Positions 18,459 to 40,080 of a stretch of 64,000 bases of DNA are shown piece after piece; the stretch's first letter is position 1, and the number at the start of each line of letters is the position of its first letter. Origin of the DNA: Gemmatimonadota bacterium (GTDB lineage Bacteria; Gemmatimonadota; Gemmatimonadetes; Gemmatimonadales; GWC2-71-9); the NCBI GenBank assembly GCA_009692185.1, contig SHZT01000009.1:49335-113334 (forward strand), read 5' to 3'. The position numbers and the translations under genes were made by a program. Under the pieces are notes generated by a model. The model worked only from the letters and a program-made list of their open reading frames with translations. It was not told the origin of the DNA and made no database searches.

Positions 18459-19010
18459 ATGCGGTCGCTGACATTCTGGCTCCTGGCGCTCTCCCTGACC
18501 GGCTGCGGCTACAATCGCATCCAGACGCTCGACGAGCAGGTGAACGGGTACAAGGGGCAAATCGAGGTCCAGCTCCAGCGCCGGGGCGACCTGGTACCGA
18601 ACCTGGTCGAAACGGTGAAGGGCTACGCCAAGCACGAGGATTCCGTGTTCACCAAGGTGGCGGAGGCGCGCGCCAAGCTGGGCGGGGCGGTGCAAAGCGG
18701 ATCCCTGTCGCAGATGGCCGAGGCCAACCAGGGACTGACCGGGGCGCTGGGCCGGCTCATCGCGATATCGGAGGCGTATCCCCAGCTTCGGGCCAACGAG
18801 AACTTCAAGTCCCTGCAGGACCAGCTCGAGGGCACCGAGAACCGGATCGCGACGGCGCGGTCGGACTACAACGGCGCGGTCGAGACGTACAACAGCTACA
18901 TCCGACAGTTTCCGCAGGTGCTGACCGCGAAGGCTATCGGCAAACAGCCGCGCGAATACTTCGAGGTCACCGGCGCGGACAAGCGTGAGGCGCCCGCGGT
19001 GAAGTTCTGA
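18459..19010 (+). CDS. lemA: LemA family protein
   Basis: N-terminus is MRSLTFWLLALSLTGCGYNRIQTLDEQV...QLQRRGDLVPNLVETVKGYAKHE, and further in ...AISEAYPQLRANENF. Confidence 0.85.
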   Translation: MRSLTFWLLALSLTGCGYNRIQTLDEQVNGYKGQIEVQLQRRGDLVPNLVETVKGYAKHEDSVFTKVAEARAKLGGAVQSGSLSQMAEANQGLTGALGRLIAISEAYPQLRANENFKSLQDQLEGTENRIATARSDYNGAVETYNSYIRQFPQVLTAKAIGKQPREYFEVTGADKREAPAVKF

Positions 19011-20551
19011 CCAATTACGCCTGGGTCATTGATCAGACCACGTGCATCGGCTGTCACGCGTGCACCACCGCGTGCAAGTCCGAGAACGACGTGCCCCTGG
19101 GCGTATTCCGCACCTGGGTCAAGAACGTCGAGGTCGGCCGGTTCCCTGACGCGCGGCGGCATTTCGCGGTCATGCGGTGCAACCACTGCGCCGAGCCGCC
19201 GTGTGTGGATATCTGCCCCACCAACGCGATGCACCAGCGCCCTGACGGCATCGTGGACATCGCCCAGGACCTCTGCATCGGATGCAAGGCTTGCATGCAG
19301 GCCTGCCCATACGACGCGGTATACATGGATCCGGAAGAGGACACCGCGGCCAAGTGCCACTTCTGCGCGCACCGCGTAGACCAGGGCCTGTTGCCCGCGT
19401 GCGTGGTCGTCTGCCCCACCGAGTCACTCGTCTTCGGCGACATGGACGACCCGGAGTCCCGAGTCTCCCGTGTCCTCGGTACGACCCCGGTCTCCGTCCG
19501 GCGGCCGGACCAGGGCACGCGCCCCAAGGCGTTTTACGTCGGCGCTCATGAAGCCACGCTGAACCCGCTCGCGGCCCGGCATGACAACCGGTACATGTGG
19601 GCCGAACGGCCCGAAGGCACCGCAACCGACAACGCCACCCAGGCAGAGACGTTCGTCCCCGATCCACGACCCGCGGCGCCCGACGCACGGTCCCTCGACG
19701 CACGAGTGGCGTATGACGTGTCCCATCCTATTACGTGGCGCAGCAAGGTTTCAGGTTACCTGTGGACCAAGTCCCTCGCCGCCGGGATCGCGTTCATCGC
19801 GGCCCTGCCCGGCGCGCTCGGCGCACCGACCGGCCCGCTGTTCAACCGGATCGCCCCGATTCTCTCCCTCACGTTCCTGGCGCTGACCGGCATCCTGCTG
19901 ATTTCAGACCTGAAGCGCCCCGAGCGGTTCTGGTTCATCCTGCTCAAGCCGCACTGGAAGTCGTGGCTCACCAAGGGGGCGTACGTTATCACCCTCTTCG
20001 GCTTCCTGCTCACGCTATGGGCGGGTGCCGGCATCCTCGGCCAGGTTCCCAAGGCCGCGTTTGCCGCGGTCATCGCCGTCGCGGCGCTCGCGACGGCCGT
20101 CTACACGGCGTTCCTCTTCGCGCAGTGCGAAGCCCGGGACCTCTGGCAGAGCCCGATCCTCGGACTCCAGCTGGTATTCCAGATGGGCATCGCGGGAGCG
20201 GCGGGACTCCTCCTCGCCGGCGCGCTCATTCCCCACCGCGTGGCTGAGGCGGGCTACCTGACGAGTGCACTCATGTGGGCCCTTATTGGCCAGCTCGCCG
20301 CCACCTGGCTCGGCGAGCTCATGACCCGCCAAGGCTCACCCAACGCCCGCGCCGCCTCCCGGGTCATGACCCACGGCCGGTACGCGGCATGGTACTGGTT
20401 CGGCGTCCTGGGCGGTTGCGTCATTCCGCTCACCATCGTCCTGACCGGTAATCCGCACGGCGAGGCTATCGCGGCGGTATTCGCGCTCTCCGGCCTTTTT
20501 GCCACCGAGCACGCGTTCGTGATGGCAGGACAGGCGGTACCGATCTCATGA
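19007..20551 (+). CDS. fused 4Fe-4S ferredoxin subunit (DmsB/PsrB-like) and NrfD/PsrC-like membrane anchor
   Basis: There are four Cys clusters (CIGCHACTTAC, CNHCAEPPC, CIGCKACMQAC, CHFCAHR...C). About 8 TM helices follow, with the NrfD hallmark DLKRPERFWFILLKPHWKSWLTKGAY. The first cluster lies upstream of the called GTG at 19091. No ATG, GTG or TTG exists between the LemA stop and that cluster, so the start (CTG 19007 or ATT 19028) is uncertain. Confidence 0.75.
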   Translation: MTNYAWVIDQTTCIGCHACTTACKSENDVPLGVFRTWVKNVEVGRFPDARRHFAVMRCNHCAEPPCVDICPTNAMHQRPDGIVDIAQDLCIGCKACMQACPYDAVYMDPEEDTAAKCHFCAHRVDQGLLPACVVVCPTESLVFGDMDDPESRVSRVLGTTPVSVRRPDQGTRPKAFYVGAHEATLNPLAARHDNRYMWAERPEGTATDNATQAETFVPDPRPAAPDARSLDARVAYDVSHPITWRSKVSGYLWTKSLAAGIAFIAALPGALGAPTGPLFNRIAPILSLTFLALTGILLISDLKRPERFWFILLKPHWKSWLTKGAYVITLFGFLLTLWAGAGILGQVPKAAFAAVIAVAALATAVYTAFLFAQCEARDLWQSPILGLQLVFQMGIAGAAGLLLAGALIPHRVAEAGYLTSALMWALIGQLAATWLGELMTRQGSPNARAASRVMTHGRYAAWYWFGVLGGCVIPLTIVLTGNPHGEAIAAVFALSGLFATEHAFVMAGQAVPIS

Positions 20552-23391
20552 CCGAGCATCCCCCGATGCAGCCCGGTTTGTCTGCCTACCCGCCGTTCGC
20601 CCGCTGGGACAACTGGACCGAGCTCGAGTCCAAGGCCTGGCCGCGGCGCGAGGAACACCGCTACGCTCTGGTACCCACGACCTGCTTCAACTGCGAGTCG
20701 GCCTGCGGATTACTGGCGTACGTGGACCGGGATACCGAGGAAATCCGGAAGTTCGAGGGCAACCCACTTCATCCGGCGAGCCGCGGCCGCAACTGCGCCA
20801 AGGGCCCGGCAACGCTCAATCAAACACAGGACCCCGAGCGGATCCTGTACCCACTCAAGCGAAGTGGTGAGCGGGGCAAGGGCAAATGGGAGCGCGTAAC
20901 CTGGGACTCGGCGCTCGACGACATCGCGGGCCGCATCCGCACGGCGATCATCGAGGACCGGAAAAACGAAGTGATGTACCATGTGGGCCGGCCCGGTGAG
21001 GATGGATTCACCGAGCGTGTTCTCGCGGCATGGGGCATAGACGGGCACAACTCGCATACGAATATCTGCTCGTCATCGGCGCGCGCCGGGTATGCCTTCT
21101 GGATGGGCATAGACCGGCCGAGCCCGGACTACGCCAACGCGCGGGTGATCCTGCTCATTTCGGCGCACTTGGAGAGCGGGCATTACTTCAACCCGCACGC
21201 CCAGCGCATCATCGAAGGCAAGAAATCTGGCGCCAAGGTCATCGTGATGGACCCGCGGCTTTCCAACACCGCGACCCATGCCGACCACTGGCTGCCCACG
21301 CGCCCGGGAAGCGAGCCCGCAGTCCTGCTCGCGATCGCGAACCAGCTCATTCAGAACGGCACCTACAACCGTGACTTCCTGAAGAAATGGGTGAACTGGG
21401 AGCAGTTCCTCTCGGTCCGCCACCCGGGCCGGGAGCCACAGTTCGAGGATTTCGAGGCCGCGCTCAAGACCATGTACGCCGAGTACACGCCGGAGTTTGC
21501 GGCGCGAGAAGCCGGTGTGAGGGCGGAATCCATTGTCGAGGTGGCAAGGATCGTTGCGGGAGCGGGCACGGCGCTCGCGGCGCACAACTGGCGGGCGGCG
21601 GCGGCCGGGAACCTCCATGGATGGATGACCACCCGCTGCCTCTTTTTCCTCAACGTGCTCACCGGCAGCGTAGGCACGAAGGGCGGCACGAATCCCAACC
21701 GCACGAACAAGTTCGTGCCGAAGCACCACACCGCCCCCGCGCACCCGGACATGTGGAACGAGCTCACGTGGCCCCGTGAATACCCGCTGGCCTTTTTCGA
21801 GATGTCATTCCTCCTGCCCCACTTCTTGAAGGAAGGGCGCGGGACGCTGGCCATGTACTTCACGCGGGTCTACAACCCGGTCTGGACCAATCCCGACGGG
21901 TTCTCGTGGATCGACATGCTCACCGACCAATCCAAGGTCGAGTGCCACGCAGCCCTGACGCCCGTCTGGAGCGAGACGGCCTGGTTCGCCGACTACGTGT
22001 TGCCGATGGGGTTGGGCGGTGAGCGGCACGACCTCCATTCGTATGAAACCCACGCGGCCCAGTGGCTGGGATTCCGACAGCCGGTTCTCCGCGCCTACCG
22101 CGAGCGCACCGGGCGGCCAGTAAGCGACACGCGCGAAGTGAACCCGGGCGAGGTGTGGGAAGAGAACGAGTTCTGGATCGAGTTGTCCTGGCGGATCGAC
22201 CCCGACGGCGCGCTCGGCATACGCAAGCACTTCGAGTCGCCGTACCGGCCGGGGCAGAAGATCTCGGTGGACGAGTACTACCGCTGGATCTTCGAGAACG
22301 CGGTGCCCGGACTGCCCGAGGCGGCGGCGAAGGAAGGCCTGGAACCGCTGGACTACATGCGGCGGAAAGGATCGTTCGAGGTCGCGCGCGAGACGTACCT
22401 GACGCACGAAGACCTGGTCCCCGAGGCCGAATTGCAGGACGTCGCCGTGGACGCGCTCAACGGTACGGTCTTCACCCGGACGCCGGCGCCCCCTGATCCC
22501 AATGTGGCGCCCCGCCCCGCCCCGCCAGCCGACTCTTCAGGCCGGCGTCACGCCGGGGTCATGGTGGACGGCGTCGTGCGGCGCGGCTTTCCCACGCCCT
22601 CCGGGAAGCTCGAGTTCTACTCGCCGACACTAGCCGACTGGGGCTGGCCCGACCTCGCGGTGCCGTCGTACCCATCGAGCCACGTGGCCCACGCCAAGAT
22701 GGACCTCACGCGCGGCGAGTACTGCCTGGTTCCCACGTTTCGCTTGCCGGTGCTGATTCATACCCGGAGCGGAAACGCGAAATGGCTCAACGAAATCGCG
22801 CACTCGAATCCGCTCTGGCTCCACCCGGAAGATGCCGCCCGGATCGGCGTGACACTGGGGGAGCTGGTGCGAGTATCGACCGAGATCGGGCACTTTGTCG
22901 TCCCGGCGTGGGTCACCGAGGGGATTCAGTCCGGCGTCGTAGCGTGCTCGCACCACATGGGCCGCTGGCGCACGTCCGAAGATGAAGGAACGGATCGATG
23001 GTCATCGGCCCGGGTAAGTCTCGAGCGAAACGGGAGCGGCTGGATGATGCGGCGCGAGCACGGGGTCGAACCGTGGGACTCGACCGACCCCGATTCGGCA
23101 CGGGTCTGGTGGCACGACGCAGGCGTGCACCAGAACCTGACGTTCCCGGTGCACCCGGACCCGGTGTCGGGTCAACACGCATGGCACCAGAAGGTGCGGG
23201 TCGAGGCCGCCCACCCGGACGACCGCGAGGGCGACGTGTTCGCCGACACGGCCCGGGCTCACGCCGTATATAAGGAATGGCTGGCGATGGCCAAGCCGGC
23301 GCCTGGCCCCGGCGGCATGCGCCGGCCGCACTGGCTGCTCCGGCCGCTGAGGCCCACACTCAAGGCCTACACTATTGGGGAGACACCATGA
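20548..23391 (+). CDS. molybdopterin (bis-MGD) oxidoreductase catalytic subunit, no Tat signal
   Basis: The N-terminal FeS motif is CFNCESACGLL...GRNCAKG. The size is 947 aa, and the C-terminal section has a beta-barrel-like MGD cap (WLHPEDAARIGVTLGELVRV). The start forms an ATGA overlap with the upstream gene. Confidence 0.85.
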   Translation: MTEHPPMQPGLSAYPPFARWDNWTELESKAWPRREEHRYALVPTTCFNCESACGLLAYVDRDTEEIRKFEGNPLHPASRGRNCAKGPATLNQTQDPERILYPLKRSGERGKGKWERVTWDSALDDIAGRIRTAIIEDRKNEVMYHVGRPGEDGFTERVLAAWGIDGHNSHTNICSSSARAGYAFWMGIDRPSPDYANARVILLISAHLESGHYFNPHAQRIIEGKKSGAKVIVMDPRLSNTATHADHWLPTRPGSEPAVLLAIANQLIQNGTYNRDFLKKWVNWEQFLSVRHPGREPQFEDFEAALKTMYAEYTPEFAAREAGVRAESIVEVARIVAGAGTALAAHNWRAAAAGNLHGWMTTRCLFFLNVLTGSVGTKGGTNPNRTNKFVPKHHTAPAHPDMWNELTWPREYPLAFFEMSFLLPHFLKEGRGTLAMYFTRVYNPVWTNPDGFSWIDMLTDQSKVECHAALTPVWSETAWFADYVLPMGLGGERHDLHSYETHAAQWLGFRQPVLRAYRERTGRPVSDTREVNPGEVWEENEFWIELSWRIDPDGALGIRKHFESPYRPGQKISVDEYYRWIFENAVPGLPEAAAKEGLEPLDYMRRKGSFEVARETYLTHEDLVPEAELQDVAVDALNGTVFTRTPAPPDPNVAPRPAPPADSSGRRHAGVMVDGVVRRGFPTPSGKLEFYSPTLADWGWPDLAVPSYPSSHVAHAKMDLTRGEYCLVPTFRLPVLIHTRSGNAKWLNEIAHSNPLWLHPEDAARIGVTLGELVRVSTEIGHFVVPAWVTEGIQSGVVACSHHMGRWRTSEDEGTDRWSSARVSLERNGSGWMMRREHGVEPWDSTDPDSARVWWHDAGVHQNLTFPVHPDPVSGQHAWHQKVRVEAAHPDDREGDVFADTARAHAVYKEWLAMAKPAPGPGGMRRPHWLLRPLRPTLKAYTIGETP

Positions 23392-23855
23392 CCAGATCTC
23401 GTCTTGCGGCGTTGTCAGGACTGGCGATTCTCTTCCTCGCGCTCGCCGCGCTCGCCGCGCTCGCGCGCCCGGCGGGGCGCCCGCAGGGGCTCGCGGTCGT
23501 CGTCTACAAGTCGCCCACCTGCGGCTGCTGCGCGAAGTGGGTGGACTACATGAAGGCCCAGGGATACCAGGTGACCGTCCACGACATGGACGACGTCGAT
23601 CCGATCAAGGATCAGCAGCACGTCCCCGGCGACCTCCGCAGCTGCCACACCGCGCTCGTGGGCGGATACGTGATCGAGGGCCACGTCCCGGCCGACCTGA
23701 TCCAGAAGCTCATTAAGGAAAAGTCCACGCTTGCCGGGCTGGCGGTCCCCGGGATGGTCGCCGGCTCGCCGGGAATGGACGGCGGTGCCAAGGAAGCGTA
23801 CGACGTCGTTTCGTTCGACAAGAGCGGAAAGACGGGCGTCTATGCGAAGCGCTGA
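23388..23855 (+). CDS. DUF411 (CopG-like metal-binding) protein, exported
   Basis: Contains KSPTCGCCAKWVDYM and CHTALVGGYVIEGHVP, with a signal-like N-terminus. The start forms an ATGA overlap with the oxidoreductase stop. Confidence 0.8.
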   Translation: MTRSRLAALSGLAILFLALAALAALARPAGRPQGLAVVVYKSPTCGCCAKWVDYMKAQGYQVTVHDMDDVDPIKDQQHVPGDLRSCHTALVGGYVIEGHVPADLIQKLIKEKSTLAGLAVPGMVAGSPGMDGGAKEAYDVVSFDKSGKTGVYAKR

Positions 23856-25663: not shown

Positions 25664-25720
25664 CACCTACGGGCTGCCCAGCGTATACTCAACCCGTTCC
25701 CACCAAACGGAGTCACGAGA

Positions 25721-26299
25721 ATGAAGAGTGCCGTGGTTCTCCTTGCCGCCGCTTCGCTGGTCGGGTCGGGCACGCTGTCGGCCCAGCAACCGGCCGCCGC
25801 CCCGCCGGCGCCGCCACCGCTCGAGATCGGCGCCGTGGCGCCGGACTTCGCCATGCCGGGCGCCACCCGCTACGGCGTTCTGCGGGACCCGATCAAGCTC
25901 AGCGACTTCAAAGGGAAGACGGTCGTGCTGGCCTTCTTCTTCCGCGCCCGAACGCGTGGCTGAACCATCCAAATGCACGCGTACCGTGATCAGTACGCGC
26001 AGATCTTCAGAGGCGGACAGAACGTCGTCCTCATCGGCATCAGCGTAGACAGTGCCGGGGCGCTGGCTTCATGGGCCAGGGATGACCAGTTCCAGTTCCT
26101 GATGGGATCCGACACCGACCAGGCGGTCGGCAAGGCTTACGGCGCTATTCGCGGTGGCTCCGACAACCGGAACCTCTTCGTGGTGGGACCGGACGGGAAA
26201 ATTGCCTGGCGGGCGACGCCGTTCCGCGAGATAGACCCGCTGGCGTACACCGAGCTGGCAGCGGCGCTCGACAAGATCTCACCGCCCGAGCAGAACTAG
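25721..26299 (+). CDS. exported peroxiredoxin (AhpC/TSA-Bcp/AhpE-like) with TGA at the peroxidatic Cys position (candidate selenocysteine)
   Basis: ORFs 25721..25963 and 25973..26299 share one frame. Joined, they read ...FKGKTVVLAFFFRARTRG[TGA]TIQMHAYRDQYAQIF...VVLIGISVDS...DNRNLFVVGPDGKI. The signal peptide is MKSAVVLLAAASLVGSGTLSAQ. Confidence 0.7.
25978..25999 (+). promoter_or_regulatory. candidate bacterial SECIS-like hairpin
   Basis: CGCGTAC (25978-25984) pairs perfectly with GTACGCG (25993-25999). The loop is CGTGATCA. The stem starts 15 nt after the TGA at 25961-25963. Confidence 0.45.
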
Positions 26300-26394
26300 A
26301 CGGATAGGCGGATAGACAGGTAGAAAAAGGGCGGAGACCGATCTTGGTCCCCGCCCTTTCGTTATCTGTCCATCCGTCTATCCGCCTATCCGTC
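26299..26394. repeat. long inverted repeat built of GGATAGG/CGGATAG units, between convergent genes
   Basis: GACGGATAGGCGGATAGAC at 26299-26317 is the exact reverse complement of 26376-26394. The inner parts pair imperfectly. The right arm encodes the last residues and the stop of TlpA. Confidence 0.9.
26324..26359. terminator. bidirectional intrinsic terminator
   Basis: AAAAAGGGCGGAGACC-GATCTT-GGTCCCCGCCCTTT forms an 11-bp stem with one mismatch. It is flanked by an A-run and a T-run and sits between convergent genes. Confidence 0.7.
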
Positions 26395-26956
26395 CCCCCG
26401 CCTTCTGGACCGCCAGCTCCACGGTCTGTTTGTCCCCCAACCCGGTGTACCTCACCTTGCCCTTGGCGTCCAGCGCGGCGATGTAGGAGGTCGAAGGCGC
26501 CTGGAACGCGCGCGTCGCCGCTCCGGACACGTCAAAGAACACCCGCCCGGGCATCGCATGCTCCGTTGCGTGACGCTTGACCGAGTTGCGGCTCTGCCCC
26601 ACGCCTACCGCGACGATCAGGATCTCAACGTTGTCTCCGTACTTGGCCTTCGCGGCCTCGAACTGGGGCATGAGGGCCTTGCACAGCGCGCACCACGTGG
26701 CCCAGAACTCCACGAGCACGGGTTTCTTTCCAATGAAGGTCGCGAGGTCCACCGCGTTGCCGTCCAGATCCTGCACCGCGATGGGCGACGTCGTGACGAT
26801 CGACGAGCCGACCGCTATGCCGATTGTCTCCTGCGCCAGCGCGGGTGACGCGATGGTGGATAGGGCGATGGTGGATAGGGCGATGGTGAATGAGGCGACG
26901 GTGGGGAAAAGCGATGGCCTCAACACCCGTCCCTCGTCTCGCGTCACTCGTCTCAT
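26378..26956 (-). CDS. TlpA/ResA-type periplasmic thiol:disulfide oxidoreductase
   Basis: The thioredoxin fold has VLVEFWATWCALCKALMP. The start is chosen at MRRVTRDE (26956). The signal region contains the repeat FTIALSTIALSTIA. Confidence 0.8.
   Translation of the reverse strand: MRRVTRDEGRVLRPSLFPTVASFTIALSTIALSTIASPALAQETIGIAVGSSIVTTSPIAVQDLDGNAVDLATFIGKKPVLVEFWATWCALCKALMPQFEAAKAKYGDNVEILIVAVGVGQSRNSVKRHATEHAMPGRVFFDVSGAATRAFQAPSTSYIAALDAKGKVRYTGLGDKQTVELAVQKAGGRIGG
26850..26906. repeat. 15-bp tandem repeat (GCGATGGTGGATAGG x2 plus two degenerate copies) inside the TlpA signal-peptide region
   Basis: 26850-26864 equals 26865-26879. Positions 26880-26894 and 26895-26906 are diverged copies. 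The repeat encodes a STIAL pentapeptide periodicity. Confidence 0.85.
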
Positions 26957-27648
26957 AGAACCTGCCCCATTTGAACGAAGTAGTACTCCGCCATGGCCAG
27001 CATCACCACGCCTGCCGCCCGCTTGATCCACACCATCCAGGGCCCGGACCGGGGCAATGCGGCCAGCGTACCGGATGATACCCCAACCGCGACCAGAATG
27101 GCGGTCATGCCAAGCGAGAACACGAACAGGTAGATGAACCCCATGACCGCGCTGTGCGTCGTCGCGACCCACGTGAGCACCACCCCGAACGCGGGCGCAC
27201 CGCAGGGCGCCGCCACAATGCCCGATGTCGCGCCGAGCACGAAGACCGCCGGGTAGGATCCCCCGCCCAGGCCCCCGGCCCACTGCACCAGCCGTTGCGG
27301 AAGCGTCACCGGAAACACATCCAGCATCGCAAGCCCGAACACCAGCAAGAGATTCCCGACGGCGAACCGCACCCACGGGTTGGCCCCGACCGCGCCAAAC
27401 AGCTCCCCCGTGAGTCCCGCGAGCAGGCCGAGCAGGGCATAGAACAGCGCCAGCCCCAGCACGTAGGCGAGCGTGAGACCAATCGTGCGCTTCCGGGTGG
27501 GCGCCTGCCCGGCCGTGCCGGCGAGAATGCTCGCCGTGATGGGAATCATGGGATAGATGCAGGGCGTGAGGCTGGTGAGCACGCCCGCCCCGAACAGCGT
27601 CAGGAGCGCCAGGAACGGATTATGCGAGAGCGAATCGGTGAGCGACAC
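26953..27648 (-). CDS. ccdA: cytochrome c biogenesis/thiol-reductant transporter CcdA (DsbD transmembrane domain)
   Basis: LTSLTPCIYPMIP and GIVAAPCGAPAF are the two conserved TM cysteines. The GTG start overlaps the upstream stop (TAGTG). Confidence 0.8.
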   Translation of the reverse strand: MSLTDSLSHNPFLALLTLFGAGVLTSLTPCIYPMIPITASILAGTAGQAPTRKRTIGLTLAYVLGLALFYALLGLLAGLTGELFGAVGANPWVRFAVGNLLLVFGLAMLDVFPVTLPQRLVQWAGGLGGGSYPAVFVLGATSGIVAAPCGAPAFGVVLTWVATTHSAVMGFIYLFVFSLGMTAILVAVGVSSGTLAALPRSGPWMVWIKRAAGVVMLAMAEYYFVQMGQVL

Positions 27649-33735: not shown

Positions 33736-34643
33736 GCCGCCCTCTGCATTCGCTTCGACCTCCACAGCGACAGCGCCACCGACAACGCCAGCACCCCCGC
33801 CACCACCCCTAGCGAGACGCCGATCGGAATCCGGACCCAATGTGCCGCGATCATCTTGACCCCGGTGAACACCAGGATCACCGACAACCCGTAGTGGAGA
33901 TACACGAACATCGGCATAATACCGGCCAGCGCGAAGTAGAGTGAGCGGAGGCCGAGGATGGCGAAGATGTTCGACGTGAACACCACGAACGGATCCAGCG
34001 TAATCGAGAGCGCGGCCGGCACCGAGTCAATCGCGAACGCGACATCGGTGGTTTCCACCACCAGCAGGACTACGAACAGCGGGGTCGCAAGGGTCCGCGC
34101 GGCCCGGCGCACGAAAAAACGGTCGCCATCGTAATCGTCGGTGACGGGGAACATCCGCCGGAACAGCCGCAGGACCGGGTTCCGCTCGGGATGGATATCC
34201 TGCTCCTTGTGCACCGCCATGCGGATGCCGGTCACGATCAGCAGGCCGCCCAGCACATAGATCAGCCACGCGAACCGTTCGATGACCGCGACCCCGACCA
34301 CGATGAACACCGCGCGCATGACCACGGCGCCCACGATGCCCCAGAACAGGACCTTGTGATGGAGGTGCTTCGGAACGTTGAAGTAGGAGAAGATGACCAG
34401 GAAGACGAAGAGATTGTCGACCGAGAGCGATTCTTCGATCAGGTAGCAGGTGAGGAACTCCAGTGCCACCCGTTGCCCGCGCCACACGTACACCAGAACC
34501 ATGAACCCGAACGCCAGCCCGATCCACACGGCGCTCCAGGTGAGCGCCTCCCGCAGCTTGACCTCGTGCGGGTTGCGATGCAGGACGCCCAGGTCGAGCG
34601 CCAGCATCGCCAGGACGACGATGGCGAAAACCGTCCAGAGCAT
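33732..34643 (-). CDS. TerC family integral membrane protein
   Basis: Contains FLTCYLIEESLSVDNLFVFLVIF and a second half with FAIDSVPA. The ATG overlaps the stop of the upstream symporter (TGATG). Confidence 0.85.
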   Translation of the reverse strand: MLWTVFAIVVLAMLALDLGVLHRNPHEVKLREALTWSAVWIGLAFGFMVLVYVWRGQRVALEFLTCYLIEESLSVDNLFVFLVIFSYFNVPKHLHHKVLFWGIVGAVVMRAVFIVVGVAVIERFAWLIYVLGGLLIVTGIRMAVHKEQDIHPERNPVLRLFRRMFPVTDDYDGDRFFVRRAARTLATPLFVVLLVVETTDVAFAIDSVPAALSITLDPFVVFTSNIFAILGLRSLYFALAGIMPMFVYLHYGLSVILVFTGVKMIAAHWVRIPIGVSLGVVAGVLALSVALSLWRSKRMQRAA

Positions 34644-35968
34644 CAGGCCCTCGCCGGCGTGCCTCCCGATTCCGCCATTTCGGGCTTCCAACCGCCTTCC
34701 GACCGCGCCACGTACACCGCGGCCGACATGTCCCCGGCCACATTCACCGTCGTCCGCGCCATGTCGAGAATACGGTCGACGCCCAGGATGATCGCGATGC
34801 CCTCAGCCGGCACGCCTACTGTGGCCAAGACCACCATGATGAGCGGCAAGGATCCGCCGGGGACGCCCGCGGCGCCGATCGCCGTGATCACCGAGAGCAC
34901 GACGACGATGACCTGCGTGCCAAGGGAGAGATGCACGCCGAAGACCTGCGCCAGGAACAGCACCGTCACGCCCTCGTACAGCGCCGTGCCATTCATGCAC
35001 ATGGTCGAGCCAATCGGGAGGACGAATCCCGCGATGCGCGCCGGGATCTTCAGCTCCTGCTCCGCCACCGCGAGGTTGGTCGGGAGCGTGGCGTTGCTCG
35101 AGCTGGTGGAAAACGCAGTGACCAGGCTGGCCCGGATCTTCTTCCAGAACACGAGCGGATTCAGTCCTCCCAGCACCCGGACCATGGCGGAGATTCCAAC
35201 AACGGCGTGGATCAGCAGGCCCGCCAGCACGACGACCATGTAGAGACCCAGCGACTCCAGAAGTTCCCAGCCGAACCGCGACGTGGTGAAGAAGATGAGC
35301 CCGAACACGCCGTAGGGGGCCAGCTTCATCGCGAACCCGATGATGATGATCACGATCTCGCCCAGCGCGTCGAGGAACTGCGTAAAGGGCTTGGACTTCG
35401 ATTCCGGCATGAGGGTAAGCGCGGCACCGAACATGACCGAGACGAAGATGATCGCCAGCATGTCCAGGTTCGCAGCCGCCTGCACCGGGTTCCGTGGCAC
35501 GATATTGACGAAAGTGTTGATGCCGAAGCCGGTCGCCATGTTCGACTGGATCCCCTGCGCCTGCGACCGGTACGTGTTGAGCAGCTCCTGCTGCATGGCG
35601 GGGTCGAGCCCCGCCCCCGGCTGGAACAGGTTTACCAGCACCAGGCCGATGGTTGCCGACAGGGTCGTTGACAGGATGAAGTACGCGACGGACTTGCCGC
35701 CGACCTTCCCGATTCTCCGGATGTCGCCCAGCCCGGCCACGCCGAGTGTCAGCGATGCGAAGACCAGGGGAATCACGGTCATGATCAGCATCCGGAGGAA
35801 GACCTGCCCCACCGGATTCATGACGTTGTTGTTGACCCACCCAAGCCAGGCCGCGCCTTCCGCGAAGCGGTTGGCCGTGATGCCGGCGGCCGCGCCGAGG
35901 ACGAGGCCGATGATGATCTTGTTATGGAGTTTCAACGGGCCCCCTTGAGACGGACGGGCGTCTACCAA
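34643..35968 (-). CDS. dicarboxylate/amino acid:cation symporter (DAACS/GltP family)
   Basis: Contains SSSNATLP, GTALYEGVTVLFLAQ, GAAGVPGGSL and DRILDMARTTVNVAGD. Confidence 0.9.
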   Translation of the reverse strand: MVDARPSQGGPLKLHNKIIIGLVLGAAAGITANRFAEGAAWLGWVNNNVMNPVGQVFLRMLIMTVIPLVFASLTLGVAGLGDIRRIGKVGGKSVAYFILSTTLSATIGLVLVNLFQPGAGLDPAMQQELLNTYRSQAQGIQSNMATGFGINTFVNIVPRNPVQAAANLDMLAIIFVSVMFGAALTLMPESKSKPFTQFLDALGEIVIIIIGFAMKLAPYGVFGLIFFTTSRFGWELLESLGLYMVVVLAGLLIHAVVGISAMVRVLGGLNPLVFWKKIRASLVTAFSTSSSNATLPTNLAVAEQELKIPARIAGFVLPIGSTMCMNGTALYEGVTVLFLAQVFGVHLSLGTQVIVVVLSVITAIGAAGVPGGSLPLIMVVLATVGVPAEGIAIILGVDRILDMARTTVNVAGDMSAAVYVARSEGGWKPEMAESGGTPARA

Positions 35969-35977
35969 CGGACAGTG

Positions 35978-38428
35978 TCAATCCACTCGGCGATGTGCCC
36001 CGCCGATTCGCATCCCGTAGAACGAACGGTAGACGAAGACGACCGACACAGCAAAAAACAGCGCGGCCAGCGAATGGGTGACGCCGGTACCCATCTCGGT
36101 GCTGAGCCGCACCGCCAGCGACACCGCCAGCAACCCGAACAGCGTCGTGAACTTGATCACCGGATTGAGCGCCACCGAGGACGTGTCCTTGTACGGGTCG
36201 CCGACCGTGTCGCCGACGACCGTCGCCGCATGCAGCGGCGTGTTTTTCATCTTGAGCTCGGTCTCCACGATCTTCTTCGCATTGTCCCAGGCGCCGCCGG
36301 CGTTGGCCATGAACACGGCCTGGTACAGCCCGAACAGCGCGATCGAGATGAGGTACCCGATGAAGAAGAAGGGCTCGGCAAAGGCAAATGACAGCGTGGA
36401 GAAGAACACGACCAGGAAGATGTTGAACATGCCCTTCTGCGCGTACTGCGTGCAGATCTCGACGACCTTCTTGCTGTCCTCCACCGACGCCTTCACCGCG
36501 CCTTCGAGCTTGATGTTGGCCTTGATGAACTCGACCGCGCGATAGGCACCGGTCGTCACCGCCTGGATCGACGCGCCGGTGAACCAGTAGATGATCGCCC
36601 CGCCGGTCACCAGGCCGAGGAGAAACGGCGCGTGCAGCATGGAGAGCTTGTCGAGGTTCACGGTGAGCTTCTCCGTCAGCTCCACGATAATCGAAAAGAT
36701 CATCGTCGTCGCGCCGACCACCGCCGTGCCGATCAGCACCGGCTTGGCCGTGGCCTTGAACGTGTTGCCCGCCCCGTCGTTCTCCTCCAGCAGGTCCTTC
36801 GCCTTGCCGAACTGGGCGTCCAGGCCAAAGTCCTTCTTCAGCTCCTGCTGGATACCCGGGACCGTCTCGATCAGGGAGAGCTCGTATACCGACTGCGCAT
36901 TGTCGGTGACCGGGCCGTACGAGTCCACGGCGATCGTCACCGGACCCATGCCGAGGAAGCCGAACGCGACGAGCCCGAACGCGAACACCGCGGGCGCCAG
37001 CATTTCGCTCGACATCGCCGTGCTCGACGCGCTCACGAAATAGGCGATGGCCATCAGGGCCATGATGCTCAGGCCGATCCAGTACCCGCTGAAGTTGCCG
37101 GCCACGAGTCCCGAGAGGATGTTGAGCGACGCCCCGCCCTCCCTCGACGAGGCGACGACTTCCCTGACGTGGCTCGATTCCACCGACGTGAAGACCTTCA
37201 CCAGCTCGGGGATGATGGCGCCAGCCAGCGTGCCGCAGGTGATGATGGTCGAGAGCTTCCACCAGAGCGTCCCGTCGCCCATTTCGGCAATGAGCGCATA
37301 GGACACGATGTAGGTCAGGACCACCGAGACGATCGACGTCAGCCAGACCAGCGAGGTCAGCGGCGCCTCGAAGTTCATCTTCGCGGCGTTCCCGTACCGG
37401 GCCTTGGCAATCGCTTCGTTGAGCAGGTACGAACCCGCGCTGGCGATGATCATCATGACGCGCATGACGAAGATCCAGACCAGCAACTGGACCTGCGTCG
37501 CCGCCTCCGGCACCGCCAGCATGATGAACGTGATCAGCGCCACGCCGGTGACACCGTAGGTCTCGAAACCGTCCGCGCTGGGCCCGACGGAGTCCCCGGC
37601 ATTGTCGCCGACGCAGTCCGCGATCACGCCCGGGTTCCGCGCGTCGTCCTCCTTGATGTTGAAGACGATCTTCATCAGGTCGGCGCCGATGTCGGCAATC
37701 TTGGTGAAGATGCCGCCCGCGATGCGGAGCGCCGCGGCGCCGAGCGACTCCCCGATGGCGAACCCGATGAAGCACGGGCCCGCGTAATCACCGGGGATGA
37801 AGAGCAGGATGAACAGCATGATCAGCAGCTCGACGCTGATGAGCAGCATGCCGATGCTCATGCCGGCGCGCAGCGGAATGGAGTACACCGGGTACGGCTT
37901 CCCTTCCAGGCTCGCAAACGCCGTGCGCGAGTTGGCATAGGTGTTCACCCGTATGCCGAACCACGCCACGCTGTAGCTGCCGAGAATGCCGACGACGCTG
38001 AACAGGAGAATGATGCCGACCCGCGCCGCCTCGAGCCCGGAGAGCACTCCGAAGTACAGCACGATGACAACGGCGATGAAGATCTCGAGAATCGCGATGA
38101 AGCGGCCCTGGGTGACCAGGTAGGTCTTGCAGGTCTCGTAGATCAGCTCGGAGACCTCGCGCATCGAACGATGCACGGGCAGGTTCTTCAGCTGATTCAG
38201 GATGATGAGGCCGAACATGATGCCAAGGACGGACACCCCGAGGCCGATGAACAGCAGCATGCGGCTGTTGAACCCGCCGACGTCCACGAGACTCAGGTCC
38301 GGCAGCACGAGGTTGGCTTCCCCGCCTTGCCCCTGGGCGGCGGCTTGTGCGAAGACGTTCCCCGGGAGGGCCATCAAGAGGGCCGCGACACGTGCAAGGT
38401 TTTTCATCGACTCGGACATCAGAGGCAT
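35978..38428 (-). CDS. hppA: membrane-bound proton/sodium-translocating pyrophosphatase
   Basis: This is an 816-aa polytopic protein with GDNAGDSVGPSADGFETY, DNAKK and GDTVGDPYKDTSSVALNPVIKF. Confidence 0.95.
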   Translation of the reverse strand: MPLMSESMKNLARVAALLMALPGNVFAQAAAQGQGGEANLVLPDLSLVDVGGFNSRMLLFIGLGVSVLGIMFGLIILNQLKNLPVHRSMREVSELIYETCKTYLVTQGRFIAILEIFIAVVIVLYFGVLSGLEAARVGIILLFSVVGILGSYSVAWFGIRVNTYANSRTAFASLEGKPYPVYSIPLRAGMSIGMLLISVELLIMLFILLFIPGDYAGPCFIGFAIGESLGAAALRIAGGIFTKIADIGADLMKIVFNIKEDDARNPGVIADCVGDNAGDSVGPSADGFETYGVTGVALITFIMLAVPEAATQVQLLVWIFVMRVMMIIASAGSYLLNEAIAKARYGNAAKMNFEAPLTSLVWLTSIVSVVLTYIVSYALIAEMGDGTLWWKLSTIITCGTLAGAIIPELVKVFTSVESSHVREVVASSREGGASLNILSGLVAGNFSGYWIGLSIMALMAIAYFVSASSTAMSSEMLAPAVFAFGLVAFGFLGMGPVTIAVDSYGPVTDNAQSVYELSLIETVPGIQQELKKDFGLDAQFGKAKDLLEENDGAGNTFKATAKPVLIGTAVVGATTMIFSIIVELTEKLTVNLDKLSMLHAPFLLGLVTGGAIIYWFTGASIQAVTTGAYRAVEFIKANIKLEGAVKASVEDSKKVVEICTQYAQKGMFNIFLVVFFSTLSFAFAEPFFFIGYLISIALFGLYQAVFMANAGGAWDNAKKIVETELKMKNTPLHAATVVGDTVGDPYKDTSSVALNPVIKFTTLFGLLAVSLAVRLSTEMGTGVTHSLAALFFAVSVVFVYRSFYGMRIGGAHRRVD

Positions 38429-38532
38429 GACTCCAGGATCTATAGGGGGATTTCTGGCCTGATTCGGCGCCAGAATATAACAAGGAAGGGCATGCGTTTG
38501 ACACCACTCGCCCCGCCCGTAGCTTCGCTCGG

Positions 38533-40080
38533 ATGACTAATCGCCTGTTTGCCCGGAAACCCGTCTCCACACTCCTCGCTGAGGCGGCCGACACCGAGCA
38601 CGGCCTCAAACGCGCCCTCGGTCCGCTCAACCTCGTCACCCTCGGCATCGGCGCGATCATCGGGGCGGGCATCTTCGTCCTGACCGGAACCGCCGCCTCA
38701 CAATACGCTGGTCCCGCGGTCGTCCTGTCGTTCATCCTGGCGGGCATCGGGTGCGCCTTCGCAGGGCTCTGCTACGCCGAGATGGTGGCGATGATCCCGG
38801 TCGCCGGGAGCGCCTACACCTACGCCTACGCTACGCTCGGCGAATTGGTCGCCTGGATCATCGGGTGGGACCTGATCCTCGAGTACTCGGTGGGAACAGT
38901 CGCGGTGTCCGTCGGCTGGTCGGGGTTCTTCGTGGGTCTCCTGCACGACTTGGGGCTCAATTTCCCCGCCGCGCTCTCCGCCGCTCGTGGGACGCAACTG
39001 ATCGAGGTGCCTGGCCAGGGCTGGCAACAGTTGTCGGACCAGATCTCGATGACACTCCTGGCCAGCGGCGTGGACCCGGCGAGCCTGCCACACGCCACCG
39101 CCCTGCTCAACATCCCGGCCATGCTCGTGGTCGCTGCGGTCACCGCGCTCCTCGTCATCGGGGTCCGCGAGTCCGCCAACGTCAACTCGGTCATCGTCAT
39201 TCTCAAGGTGGGCGCGCTGCTCGCATTCATCGTCGCAGGCATCGCGTTCCTGCTCCGCCATCCGGATGTGCTGAAAGCCAACTGGAGCGATTTCATTCCG
39301 GCGAACAAGGGAACGTTCGGGGCGTTCGGCTGGAGCGGGATACTGCGGGGCGCCGGGGTGATCTTCTTCGCCTATATCGGATTCGACGCTATCTCGACCG
39401 AGGCCCAGGAAGCGAAGAACCCCCAGCGCGACATGCCGATCGGCATCCTGGGCAGCCTGGTCATCTGTACGATCATCTATATCCTGGTGGGCGCGGTGCT
39501 CACCGGCCTGGTGCACTATGACCGGCTCAACGTCCCCAACCCGGTCGGCGTCGGCCTCGACGTCATCGGCACCCGCTGGCTCTCCGTGGCAGTCGGGATC
39601 GCGGCGATTGGCGCCCTGTCCTCGGCCATGCTGGTCATGCTCATGAGCCAGCCGCGGGTCTTCTGGGCCATGGCGAAGGACGGCCTTCTGCCCCCGATGT
39701 TCGCGAAGATCCACCCGCGGTTCCGCACCCCGTACGTCACCACCATCGTAACCGGGCTCATCATCGCGCTGTTCGCAGGGATCACGACCATCGCCGACGC
39801 GGGACAACTTGTGAGTATCGGGACGCTGCTGGCGTTCGTCCTGGTGTGCCTCGGCGTCCTGGTTTTGCGCCGCACGCACCCCGATACGCCGCGCCCGTTC
39901 CGCGCGCCGCTCGGCTGGTTCACCCCGGTCATGGGTATTGTCATCTGCCTCGCCCAAATGGTCGGACTGCCTGGACGGACGTGGTTGAGACTCGTCGGAT
40001 GGCTGGCGGTGGGGCTGGTGATCTACTTCCTCTACGGGATGAAGCGGAGCAAGCTGGCAGGGGTTCGTAAGGCGGGTTGA
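38533..40080 (+). CDS. APC-superfamily amino acid permease (cationic amino acid transporter-like)
   Basis: Contains LGIGAIIGAGIFVLTG and FFAYIGFDAISTEAQEAKNPQRDMP, with about 13 TM segments. Confidence 0.9.
   Translation: MTNRLFARKPVSTLLAEAADTEHGLKRALGPLNLVTLGIGAIIGAGIFVLTGTAASQYAGPAVVLSFILAGIGCAFAGLCYAEMVAMIPVAGSAYTYAYATLGELVAWIIGWDLILEYSVGTVAVSVGWSGFFVGLLHDLGLNFPAALSAARGTQLIEVPGQGWQQLSDQISMTLLASGVDPASLPHATALLNIPAMLVVAAVTALLVIGVRESANVNSVIVILKVGALLAFIVAGIAFLLRHPDVLKANWSDFIPANKGTFGAFGWSGILRGAGVIFFAYIGFDAISTEAQEAKNPQRDMPIGILGSLVICTIIYILVGAVLTGLVHYDRLNVPNPVGVGLDVIGTRWLSVAVGIAAIGALSSAMLVMLMSQPRVFWAMAKDGLLPPMFAKIHPRFRTPYVTTIVTGLIIALFAGITTIADAGQLVSIGTLLAFVLVCLGVLVLRRTHPDTPRPFRAPLGWFTPVMGIVICLAQMVGLPGRTWLRLVGWLAVGLVIYFLYGMKRSKLAGVRKAG
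40018..40063 (+). repeat. direct repeat copy A (functional 3' end of the permease)
   Basis: GTGATCTACTTCCTCTACGGGATGAAGCGGAGCAAGCTGGCAGGGG is about 80% identical by hand alignment to 40611-40656. Confidence 0.75.

What the first reader, a model, noticed from the sequence alone, without database searches (positions are those of the whole stretch)
25721..26299. Exported peroxiredoxin with an in-frame TGA at the peroxidatic-Cys position, a candidate selenocysteine enzyme
ORFs 25721..25963 and 25973..26299 are in the same frame. They are separated only by TGA (25961-25963) and three sense codons. The joined product is a complete signal-peptide-bearing AhpC/TSA-type peroxiredoxin.

It reads ...SDFKGKTVVLAFFFRARTRG-[TGA]-TIQMHAYRDQYAQIF..VVLIGISVDS...SDNRNLFVVGPDGKI. 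The TGA falls exactly where this family carries the catalytic Cys (T-x-x-C-T-x-E/Q after the VVL-FFP strand). The conserved downstream Arg is also present.

A random nonsense mutation would not be expected to land on that one residue. A perfect 7-bp stem with an 8-nt G/U-containing loop begins 15 nt after the TGA (25978-25999), which is the spacing expected for a bacterial SECIS. Prx-like selenoproteins are known from metagenomic surveys. An exported (Sec-pathway signal) example paired with a CcdA/TlpA reductant system would still be unusual.
Basis: partly seen in the sequence, partly recalled or inferred. Interest (0 to 1): 0.8.

Follow-up and report, generated by a model that had tools for sequence, protein, structure and literature searches.

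The report
Exported selenocysteine peroxiredoxin gene in Gemmatimonadota
The "stop codon" that splits this gene almost certainly encodes selenocysteine at the catalytic site of a secreted peroxide-destroying enzyme; the enzyme type is known, but this large Gemmatimonadota branch is mis-annotated as two small genes and lacks a proline thought to be universal in such enzymes.

Summary
Window 25721-26299 (+) is one reading frame with a single in-frame TGA (25961-25963), and the joined product is a complete AhpC/TSA peroxiredoxin.

The selenocysteine reading is strongly supported by comparison with relatives. All 88 close relatives found carry TGA at this column: the window, 6 Gemmatimonadota genomes from two classes, and 81 metagenome contigs. 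111 more distant homologues carry Cys there. Purifying selection acts on both sides of the TGA (dN/dS 0.16 and 0.27).

The hairpin at 25978-25999 meets every published bacterial SECIS criterion. Its codons are frozen in 77 of 78 non-redundant sequences, including rare CGT and GAT, but vary in 6 of 6 Cys-form genes encoding the same peptide. Its closing pair covaries: C-G 43, U-A 34, with about 11 switches.

Extra features: a signal peptide, no Cys in the mature protein, Phe/Tyr replacing the canonical Prx proline in every TGA form, and convergent TlpA-like and CcdA genes in 46 of 50 loci.

Not shown: selA, selB, selC and selD in the genome, which these tools could not test.

Sec-peroxiredoxins have been known since 2001, so I rate this a new variant of a known kind, of moderate interest.

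The parts
25709..25712 (+). Shine-Dalgarno-like GGAG, 8 nt upstream of the ATG at 25721
   Evidence: Read directly from the sequence. No comparable motif precedes the internal ATG at 25973.
25721..26299 (+). Complete selenoprotein gene: 192 codons (191 sense codons plus UGA read as Sec) followed by the TAG stop at 26297-26299. Encodes a BCP/PrxQ-like 1-Sec peroxiredoxin precursor.
25721..25783 (+). Predicted signal peptide, residues 1-21 (MKSAVVLLAAASLVGSGTLSA|QQ)
   Evidence: All 45 relative leaders inspected show a basic n-region, an A/L/V-rich h-region and an A-x-A|Q site; median peak hydropathy over all 87 is 2.38. The N-terminal ~25 residues have low pLDDT in the model. This is a heuristic call; no signal-peptide predictor was available.
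25940..25942 (+). F74 codon, at the position of the 'absolutely conserved' Pro of the Prx PxxxTxxC motif
   Evidence: In reconstructed proteins it is Phe (67) or Tyr (20) in 87 of 87 TGA forms, and Pro in 111 of 112 Cys forms
25952..25954 (+). T78 codon, the active-site Thr of the TxxU motif
   Evidence: Thr or Ser in all relatives; aligned to the Thr of 2ywn
25961..25963 (+). UGA read as selenocysteine 81, the peroxidatic residue
   Evidence: TGA in 88 of 88 close relatives and Cys in 111 homologues
25964..26002 (+). Zone of suppressed synonymous variation, codons +1 to +13 after the UGA
   Evidence: pS is 0.28 here against 0.52-0.55 in the flanks. CAA at codon +3 is used in 73 of 78 sequences although CAA is 5% of Gln codons elsewhere. 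CGT is used in 78 of 78 (8% background) and GAT in 77 of 78 (28% background)
25978..25999 (+). SECIS hairpin: 7-bp stem (25978-25984 with 25993-25999) and 8-nt apical loop CGUGAUCA (25985-25992)
   Evidence: Meets the bSECIS criteria in 78 of 78 sequences. Closing pair is C-G 43, U-A 34, mismatch 1. RNAalifold predicts the same helix. The exact 20-nt core is in 87 loci and in none of the Cys-form loci
26168..26170 (+). R150 codon, the conserved catalytic Arg of peroxiredoxins
   Evidence: An invariant column in the alignment; aligned to the Arg of 2ywn
26378..26956 (-). Convergent TlpA-like exported thioredoxin (192 aa, WCALC motif), the proposed direct reductant
   Evidence: Pfam Redoxin, AhpC-TSA and Thioredoxin. 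Gene bounds from the public gene call. Adjacent in 46 of 50 TGA-form loci with enough flank
26953..27648 (-). CcdA (DsbD_TM) membrane electron transporter (231 aa), proposed to re-reduce the TlpA-like protein
   Evidence: Pfam DsbD_TM, E 3.6e-46. Gene bounds. Adjacent in 46 of 50 loci

Best explanation
This is one gene for a secreted, selenocysteine-dependent peroxiredoxin.

Decoding. During translation, the hairpin 21 nt downstream of UGA-81 acts as a bacterial SECIS. It recruits SelB-GTP-Sec-tRNA(Sec), so the UGA is read as selenocysteine rather than stop.

Export. The 192-residue precursor is exported through its N-terminal signal peptide, which is cleaved near A21|Q22.

Catalysis. In the cell envelope the selenolate of U81 attacks H2O2 or an organic hydroperoxide and forms a selenenic acid. 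It sits in a Prx active site that keeps Thr78 and Arg150 but has Phe74 in place of the canonical Pro.

Recycling. The mature protein has no Cys, so an external thiol must recycle the enzyme. The most likely donor is the TlpA-like thioredoxin encoded next door, through a selenenylsulfide intermediate. CcdA would keep that thioredoxin reduced using cytoplasmic thioredoxin electrons.

Shown here: conservation of the TGA, continued coding selection past it, an RNA-level constraint and covariation in a hairpin that meets the SECIS criteria, the Prx fold and the residue assignments, absence of Cys, and the synteny.

Inferred: actual Sec insertion, export, peroxidase activity and the electron route.
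For: TGA conservation. It is at the same column in 88 of 88 close relatives: the window, 6 GTDB Gemmatimonadota genomes spanning Gemmatimonadia and Longimicrobiia, and 81 metagenome contigs. The frame is open on both sides. 111 homologues have Cys there.

Selection. dN/dS is 0.16 upstream and 0.27 downstream, at pS of about 0.52-0.55.

bSECIS criteria from PMC13188914, all met in 78 of 78 sequences: 8-nt loop, 7-bp stem, G at loop position 2 followed by U, 21-nt spacing, MFE -7.8 to -9.4 kcal/mol.

Frozen codons. GCG TAC CGT GAT CAG TAC is identical in 77 of 78 sequences although CGT is 8% and GAT 28% of their codon families elsewhere in these genes; the chance for one gene is 0.007. Six distinct Cys-form genes encoding the same AYRDQY peptide all vary at these sites.

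Covariation. The closing pair is C-G 43, U-A 34, mismatch 1, with no C-A or U-G. Both are synonymous third positions, and there are about 11 changes on a tree.

Genetic code. TGA is an ordinary stop elsewhere in the window, and no other gene has an in-frame TGA.

Fold. Pfam AhpC-TSA full length. AF2 model of a clade member at pLDDT 89.5, matching peroxiredoxins: AhpE TMt 0.87, Bcp4 0.84.

One-Sec type and export. No Cys in the mature part of 87 of 87 proteins; every leader inspected is signal-peptide-like.

Synteny and precedent. TlpA-like plus CcdA are adjacent in 46 of 50 loci. The ScsB-TlpA-PprX pathway is characterised in Caulobacter (PMC3322552).
Against: No selA, selB, selD or tRNA-Sec was found in the 64-kb window or the 546 kb of DNA held. 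The SelA and SelD queries were written from memory, and these genes are rarely linked to selenoprotein genes, so this is weak evidence either way.

I found no publication reporting the Sec-decoding trait in Gemmatimonadota.

On the single window sequence the fold is not better than shuffles. No Rfam family matches.

Part of the hairpin potential comes from the conserved AY..QYA peptide itself. Two of six Cys-form genes can still fold a similar hairpin.

The Pro that Prx reviews call absolutely conserved is missing, so peroxidase activity cannot be taken for granted.

The signal peptide was judged by eye and by hydropathy, not with a predictor.
Confidence: 0.85

Rival explanations
1. The UGA is recoded, but not to selenocysteine. 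The hairpin would stimulate read-through by a near-cognate or dedicated tRNA, inserting Trp or Cys. A SelB-dependent UGA-to-Cys route through a tRNA-Sec-like Cys-tRNA has been proposed in some Actinobacteria (from my own knowledge, not checked here).
For: The Sec machinery was not demonstrated. The comparative signals, namely the conserved TGA, downstream selection and the constrained hairpin, prove recoding but do not identify the inserted residue.
Against: The codon sits exactly on the catalytic Cys column of 111 homologues, which is the classic Sec/Cys pair. The hairpin satisfies the SelB-type bSECIS consensus in loop size, G-U position and spacing. Trp at the peroxidatic site would kill the enzyme, yet the rest of the active site stays conserved. 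If Cys were wanted, a single TGA-to-TGC/TGT change would do, and none of the 88 loci shows it.
Confidence: 0.06
2. It is a pseudogene, a Cys-type peroxiredoxin inactivated by a nonsense mutation, or the TGA is a sequencing or assembly error.
For: Public annotation calls two ORFs of 80 and 108 aa. No sel genes are visible in the window.
Against: The same TGA is found in 88 independent assemblies at 70-80% nucleotide identity. There are no further stops or frameshifts. Downstream dN/dS is 0.27 at near-saturated synonymous divergence. The hairpin is under nucleotide-level constraint with compensatory change.
Confidence: 0.01
3. Two separate small proteins are made: an exported 80-residue N-terminal fragment and a 108-residue C-terminal fragment started at ATG 25973. 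They would work separately or re-associate.
For: An ATG lies four codons after the TGA. Gene callers accept it.
Against: That Met is an internal, conserved residue of the TIQM motif in the full-length Cys forms too. No Shine-Dalgarno motif precedes it, whereas GGAG precedes 25721. The split would cut the thioredoxin fold at the active-site helix and leave the C-terminal half without a signal peptide. The stop is invariably TGA, never TAA or TAG.
Confidence: 0.02
4. It is a genuine exported selenoprotein but not a peroxidase. For example, it could be a selenol-based thiol:disulfide or sulfenic-acid reductase, or a redox sensor working with TlpA and CcdA.
For: The canonical Pro is lost in every TGA form. 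There is no resolving Cys. The tight TlpA-CcdA linkage is seen in 46 of 50 TGA-form loci but in only one of five Cys-form loci inspected, and that one has only a DsbD_TM gene, upstream. No NCBIfam peroxiredoxin model reaches its cut-off.
Against: The Thr/Ser and Arg of the Prx catalytic set are retained, and the protein has a full-length Prx fold most similar to 1-Cys and BCP-type peroxidases. About a third of PrxQ members naturally lack a resolving Cys (PMC4749874).
Confidence: 0.12

Closest known systems
Selenocysteine-containing peroxiredoxins: PrxU of Eubacterium acidaminophilum (Sohling et al. 2001) and the 'Prx, COG1225, TxxU' selenoprotein family of Zhang and Gladyshev
   Same: AhpC/TSA fold with Sec replacing the peroxidatic Cys in a T-x-x-U motif and a SECIS hairpin just downstream. 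The family is common (43 sequences in the Sargasso Sea) and arose by repeated Cys-to-Sec conversions (PMC1088965, PMC1794560, PMC13188914).
   Different: This is not the PrxU equivalog: NF040737 scores 49 bits against a cut-off of 270. The review describes a conserved PxxxTxxU motif, but this clade has [F/Y]xxxTxxU. It also has a signal peptide, no other Cys, a Gemmatimonadota host and fixed TlpA-CcdA neighbours.
Caulobacter crescentus PprX with TlpA and ScsB, the cell-envelope peroxide reduction pathway (Cho et al. 2012, PMC3322552)
   Same: An exported BCP/PrxQ-type peroxiredoxin reduced by a TlpA thioredoxin. A DsbD-family membrane electron transporter in turn reduces TlpA.
   Different: PprX uses Cys, keeps the PxxxTxxC Pro and has a resolving Cys. 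Its transporter is ScsB, not CcdA. Here the catalytic residue is Sec, the Pro is Phe or Tyr, there is no resolving residue, and the three genes are physically linked.
BCP/PrxQ and AhpE 1-Cys peroxiredoxins with solved structures (2ywn/4g2e, 3hjp, 1xxu)
   Same: Best sequence and structure matches. Thr, the peroxidatic residue and Arg align, and the peroxidatic position is at the start of helix alpha-2.
   Different: These are cytoplasmic, Cys-based, and contain the Pro. Identity is only 23-31%.
E. coli fdhF-type bacterial SECIS and the general bSECIS consensus
   Same: A short hairpin in the coding region immediately 3' of the UGA, with G-U near the start of a small apical loop and spacing within the 16-37 nt range.
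   Different: There is no sequence similarity and no Rfam match. No conserved lower stem is present. The element is built on a conserved peptide (AYRDQYA) whose codons already tend to form the hairpin in some Cys forms.

Membership tests
Peroxiredoxin (AhpC/TSA, PF00578; BCP/PrxQ-like) | Thioredoxin-like Prx fold, full-length domain | tested here: met
   Pfam profile positions 1-123 of 124, E 6.8e-26. AF2 model of a clade member at pLDDT 89.5, with top PDB matches all peroxiredoxins.
Peroxiredoxin (AhpC/TSA, PF00578; BCP/PrxQ-like) | Pro of the PxxxTxxC motif, called 'absolutely conserved' in PMC3322552 | tested here: not met
   F74 in the window. Phe or Tyr in all 88 TGA forms (87 of 87 in the alignment). 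Pro in 111 of 112 Cys forms.
Peroxiredoxin (AhpC/TSA, PF00578; BCP/PrxQ-like) | Active-site Thr (or Ser) three residues before the peroxidatic residue | tested here: met
   T78; Thr or Ser in all relatives.
Peroxiredoxin (AhpC/TSA, PF00578; BCP/PrxQ-like) | Peroxidatic Cys (or Sec) at the N-terminus of helix alpha-2 | tested here: met
   The TGA codon occupies the Cys column of 111 homologues and of 2ywn. In the model, helix 76-87 starts just before the site at residue 78 in P0007 numbering. That the residue is Sec is inferred.
Peroxiredoxin (AhpC/TSA, PF00578; BCP/PrxQ-like) | Conserved catalytic Arg | tested here: met
   R150 is an invariant column and aligns to the Arg of 2ywn.
Peroxiredoxin (AhpC/TSA, PF00578; BCP/PrxQ-like) | Thiol-dependent peroxidase activity | not testable with these tools
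   Needs an enzyme assay.
Bacterial selenoprotein gene | In-frame UGA conserved among orthologues and aligned with Cys in homologues | tested here: met
   88 of 88 TGA; 111 Cys homologues.
Bacterial selenoprotein gene | Translation continues past the UGA (coding selection downstream) | tested here: met
   Downstream dN/dS 0.27 at pS 0.52. The ORF is intact for 108-120 codons in all loci.
Bacterial selenoprotein gene | bSECIS hairpin: loop 3-9 nt, stem 4-16 bp, G in the first two loop positions, 16-37 nt from the UGA, MFE no higher than -7.5 kcal/mol | tested here: met
   8-nt loop CGUGAUCA, 7-bp stem, 21-nt spacing, -7.8 to -9.4 kcal/mol in 78 of 78 sequences. Frozen synonymous sites and a covarying closing pair.
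Bacterial selenoprotein gene | selA, selB, selD and tRNA-Sec present in the same genome | not testable with these tools
Bacterial selenoprotein gene | Selenium actually incorporated | not testable with these tools
   Needs 75Se labelling or mass spectrometry.
PrxU (NCBIfam NF040737, equivalog) | Score at or above the curated cut-off | tested here: not met
   49.1 bits against a cut-off of 270. The best NCBIfam hit is BCP NF006960, at 59 bits against 140.
PprX-type envelope peroxide-reduction pathway (DsbD-family to TlpA to exported PrxQ) | Exported PrxQ-type peroxiredoxin | tested here: inconclusive
   A signal-peptide-like leader in every one of the 45 leaders inspected, by heuristic only. 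The BCP/PrxQ assignment rests on best-hit similarity below the curated cut-offs.
PprX-type envelope peroxide-reduction pathway (DsbD-family to TlpA to exported PrxQ) | TlpA-like thioredoxin and DsbD-family transporter as electron donors | tested here: inconclusive
   Both genes are adjacent in 46 of 50 loci. That is genomic association only; electron transfer is untested. The transporter is CcdA, not ScsB.

The most novel reading that the evidence does not exclude
This is a distinct extracytoplasmic class of 1-Sec peroxidase. The Cys-to-Sec switch came together with loss of the 'absolutely conserved' active-site proline (to Phe or Tyr) and with fixed recruitment of a TlpA-CcdA reducing module. 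It is widespread across Gemmatimonadota, a phylum for which I found no report of selenocysteine decoding. Its SECIS evolved from a hairpin already latent in the codons of a conserved peptide. If so, natural Sec/[F/Y] and Cys/Pro orthologue pairs would offer a direct test of what selenium buys a peroxiredoxin and what the conserved proline is for.
Probability: 0.4. Interest if true: 0.6.

Novelty: new variant of a known kind. Interest (0 to 1): 0.5.

Why it matters
First, annotation. Public annotation splits the gene into 80-aa and 108-aa ORFs, and no NCBIfam model captures it. At least 88 relatives, probably hundreds, are therefore mis-called, and Gemmatimonadota would be overlooked as users of selenocysteine.

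Second, enzymology. The clade breaks the PxxxTxxC rule exactly where Sec replaces Cys, while close Cys/Pro relatives exist. That gives a natural matched pair for the long-standing question of why some enzymes use selenium.

Third, cell biology. It would be a selenium-dependent version of the envelope peroxide-reduction pathway (DsbD-family to TlpA to PrxQ). It is genetically hard-wired as a three-gene neighbourhood, in a phylum found in many environmental metagenomes.

Fourth, evolution. The SECIS looks like a frozen version of a hairpin that the conserved AYRDQYA peptide already encodes in some Cys forms. This illustrates how easily bacterial SECIS elements can arise.

Tried and rejected
- Single-sequence folding of 25955-26030 gave z = -0.37, so it is not informative alone.
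- Rfam at gathering and at permissive thresholds gave no SECIS or other real match.
- tRNA scans of the window and of all loci found no tRNA-Sec.
- phmmer with E. coli SelA and SelD, written from memory, against six-frame ORFs of 546 kb found nothing.
- Pfam scans of about 40 window genes found no selenium-related gene.
- Scans for other in-frame TGAs with coding signal on both sides, in the window and in all loci, gave only same-frame gene junctions and antisense artefacts.
- Seven literature searches found nothing on a Sec trait in Gemmatimonadota. The BSepDB supplements are not held.
- Monophyly of the TGA clade is unresolved. All 91 F/Y-type sequences lie on one side of an NJ split, but 16 Pro/Cys sequences lie there too. 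The Sec-[F/Y] coupling may therefore reflect a single historical event and cannot be called statistically independent.
- Apparent 'W' and 'L' full-length variants were checked. P0006 'W' is a TGA called with another genetic code. P0002 'L' is TTA on a 1.6x-coverage contig with the SECIS intact.
- A conserved lower SECIS stem was looked for and not found.
Full report
**1. The observation**

Window 25721-26299 (+) is one reading frame of 193 codons including the TAG stop. It is interrupted only by TGA at 25961-25963. The second listed ORF starts at an ATG four codons later.

With Cys substituted for the TGA, the product matches Pfam AhpC-TSA across the whole profile (positions 1-123 of 124, E 6.8e-26). 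The proposed stem-loop exists: a perfect 7-bp stem at 25978-25984 and 25993-25999 with the loop CGUGAUCA. Taken alone, though, the region folds no better than shuffled sequence (z = -0.37). A GGAG lies 8 nt upstream of the first ATG, and nothing comparable precedes the internal ATG.

The window is 66% G+C. It comes from a Gemmatimonadota MAG: the 108-aa C-terminal ORF is 100% identical to an NCBI 'Gemmatimonadetes bacterium' protein on a 416-kb contig, where the gene is called as 80-aa and 108-aa ORFs.

**2. Is the TGA an accident?**

No. A scan of one genome per GTDB species returned six Gemmatimonadota genomes at 62-75% amino-acid identity. They cover Gemmatimonadaceae, Gemmatimonadales and Longimicrobiales, which is two classes. 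All six carry TGA at the same column, with the frame open on both sides.

A metagenome scan returned 554 relatives. The best 80 were kept, and all 80 carry the TGA. One database protein with 'W' at the site turned out to be a TGA translated with another genetic code. That makes 88 TGA loci, 78 of them non-redundant at less than 97% nucleotide identity and 70-80% identical to the window.

By contrast, 111 full-length homologues at roughly 55-70% identity have Cys in that column. Across the TGA forms, dN/dS is 0.16 upstream and 0.27 downstream of the TGA, with synonymous divergence near saturation (pS 0.52-0.55). The downstream part is therefore translated in this frame.

TGA is an ordinary stop for many other genes in the window, and no other gene shows an in-frame TGA. 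A lineage-wide reassignment of TGA is therefore excluded. Pseudogene, sequencing-error and two-gene readings are effectively ruled out.

**3. The SECIS**

The per-codon synonymous analysis is the strongest single result. Codons +6 to +11 after the TGA are GCG TAC CGT GAT CAG TAC in 77 of 78 sequences. In the rest of these same genes, CGT is 8% of Arg codons and GAT is 28% of Asp codons. CAA, fixed at codon +3 in 73 of 78, is 5% of Gln codons. The chance that one gene uses the six-codon block is about 0.007. Synonymous divergence over codons +1 to +13 is half that of the flanks.

Six distinct Cys-form genes encoding the same QM.AYRDQY peptide all vary at these sites. None keeps the block (for the first four, Fisher p = 3e-6). 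The exact 20-nt core is found once in the window, in 87 loci (86 TGA forms plus the TTA variant), and in none of the Cys-form or distant loci.

The one variable pair of the stem (25978:25999) joins two synonymous third positions 21 nt apart. It is C-G in 43 sequences, U-A in 34 and mismatched in one, and it is never C-A or U-G. There are about 11 changes on a neighbour-joining tree. RNAalifold predicts exactly this helix.

The element meets every criterion of the published bSECIS consensus in 78 of 78 sequences. Those criteria are a loop of 3-9 nt, a stem of 4-16 bp, G in the first two loop positions, 16-37 nt from the UGA, and an MFE no higher than -7.5 kcal/mol. Here the values are 8 nt, 7 bp, C-G-U..., 21 nt and -7.8 to -9.4.

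No conserved lower stem exists, and no Rfam family matches. Two of the six Cys forms can still fold a similar hairpin, because the AY..QYA peptide is nearly palindromic at codon level. The SECIS looks like a frozen version of a pre-existing coding hairpin.

**4. The protein**

The closest solved relative by sequence is the archaeal BCP-type Prx 2ywn/4g2e. That alignment puts T78 on the motif Thr, U81 on the peroxidatic Cys and R150 on the catalytic Arg. It puts F74 on the Pro of PxxxTxxC.

An AlphaFold model of a clade member has mean pLDDT 89.5 and a Prx fold. The best target TM-scores are to the 1-Cys Prx AhpE (0.87) and to Bcp4 (0.84).

No NCBIfam model reaches its cut-off: BCP scores 59 against 140, and the characterised Sec-peroxiredoxin PrxU scores 49 against 270.

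Across 202 aligned sequences the Pro column and the catalytic column are almost perfectly linked:

| Pro column | Catalytic column | Count |
|---|---|---|
| Pro | Cys | 111 |
| Phe or Tyr | Sec | 87 |
| Phe | TGA or TTA miscalled as W or L | 3 |
| Tyr | Cys | 1 |
| Pro | Sec | 0 |

The F/Y-type sequences cluster together, with 72% mean identity within the group against 61% to the Cys forms. Strict monophyly was not resolved, so the linkage may record a single event.

None of the 87 reconstructed mature proteins contains a Cys. All 45 leaders inspected have a basic-hydrophobic-AxA|Q layout.

**5. Context**

Immediately downstream and convergent lie a TlpA-like thioredoxin (26378-26956, WCALC motif) and CcdA/DsbD_TM (26953-27648). 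The same pair follows the gene in 46 of 50 TGA-form loci with more than 1.8 kb of downstream sequence. Of five Cys-form loci inspected, only one has a DsbD_TM gene nearby.

**6. Mechanism**

Decoding and export. SelB with Sec-tRNA(Sec) docks on the hairpin and inserts Sec at codon 81. The precursor is exported and its leader is removed.

Catalysis and recycling. The selenolate reduces peroxide and becomes a selenenic acid. With no resolving residue in the protein, the TlpA-like thioredoxin resolves it through a selenenylsulfide. CcdA then re-reduces the thioredoxin using cytoplasmic reducing power.

Shown and not shown. The recoding signals are shown here. Sec identity, export, activity and the electron route are inferred.

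Gaps. The main gap is the Sec machinery. A residue other than Sec at the recoded UGA therefore remains formally possible, at about 6%.

**7. Comparison with what is known**

Sec-peroxiredoxins are an old and common selenoprotein family. PrxU was described in 2001. There were 43 TxxU Prx genes (COG1225/Bcp) in the Sargasso Sea and 12 in genomes by 2006, with five inferred Cys-to-Sec conversions.

An exported Cys-type PrxQ reduced through TlpA and a DsbD-family protein is characterised in Caulobacter. The paper describing it calls Pro, Thr, Cys and Arg absolutely conserved.

The kind is therefore known. Several things appear new: the lineage, the combination of Sec with export and a hard-wired TlpA-CcdA module, the replacement of the Pro by Phe or Tyr in every Sec form, and the fact that annotation and curated models miss the gene.

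**8. Verdict**

- Observation: confirmed.
- Interpretation: supported.
- Novelty: new variant of a known kind.
- Interest: about 0.5.

Noticed in passing
window 26297-26388: A long imperfect inverted repeat (43-nt arms, 81% complementary, 6 nt apart) fills the whole space between the convergent Prx and TlpA-like stop codons. It contains GGATAG(G/A)C sub-repeats and a GC-rich core flanked by A and T runs. It is probably a bidirectional terminator or a REP-like element.
   Followed up: partly
L095:331-333 (protein P0002): One relative has TTA (Leu) instead of TGA while keeping the exact 20-nt SECIS core and the rare CAA codon. The contig has 1.6x coverage. It is either a read error or a very recent inactivating or altering mutation.
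   Followed up: partly
L094:748-750 (protein P0006): A JGI gene call reports a full-length 'thioredoxin-dependent peroxiredoxin' with Trp at the catalytic site. The DNA has TGA, so the caller used a code in which TGA means Trp. Such entries hide selenoproteins in protein databases.
   Followed up: yes
protein P0047 (database homologue): This is the only sequence combining Tyr at the Pro position with Cys at the catalytic position. Its nearest neighbours are TGA forms, and its peptide (DTYRDRY) no longer encodes the hairpin. It could be a Sec-to-Cys reversion or a pre-Sec intermediate.
   Followed up: partly
L097 (Cys-form gene, protein P0015): A Cys-form gene carries CGCGUAUCGUGAUCAGUACGCG, one base away from the SECIS hairpin of the TGA forms and still foldable at -7.8 kcal/mol. 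The conserved AYRDQYA peptide seems to pre-adapt the mRNA for SECIS formation.
   Followed up: partly
window 25958-25972: Synonymous constraint extends outside the hairpin: GGC at codon -1 in 72 of 78 sequences, ACG at +1 in 67 of 78, and CAA at +3 in 73 of 78 against a 5% background. This suggests that the immediate UGA context is also selected.
   Followed up: no
window 18989-23855: A fused 4Fe-4S ferredoxin plus NrfD membrane subunit (18989-20551) overlaps, through ATGA, a 947-aa molybdopterin oxidoreductase (20548-23391) that has Cys, not Sec. A DUF411 protein with a CxxC motif follows (23277-23855). This looks like a Psr/Nrf-like respiratory module just upstream of the redox gene cluster.
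   Followed up: no
window 54979-55455: This ORF encodes only the first ~90 positions of a protein-kinase domain and ends in TGA. It may be a truncated kinase or pseudogene. It did not pass the coding-continuity scan for a selenoprotein.
   Followed up: no
L100-L102 (Cys-form P0048 neighbourhood): A Cys/Pro homologue found on many contigs sits near SCO1/SenC and Caa3_CtaG cytochrome-oxidase assembly genes rather than TlpA-CcdA. The Cys and Sec forms may serve different envelope pathways.
   Followed up: no
window 35978-35980: The H+-pyrophosphatase gene (35978-38536, minus strand) and the sodium:dicarboxylate symporter gene (34643-35977, minus strand) lie in the same frame, separated only by a TGA. 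The selenoprotein scan flagged this, but it is simply a gene junction.
   Followed up: yes
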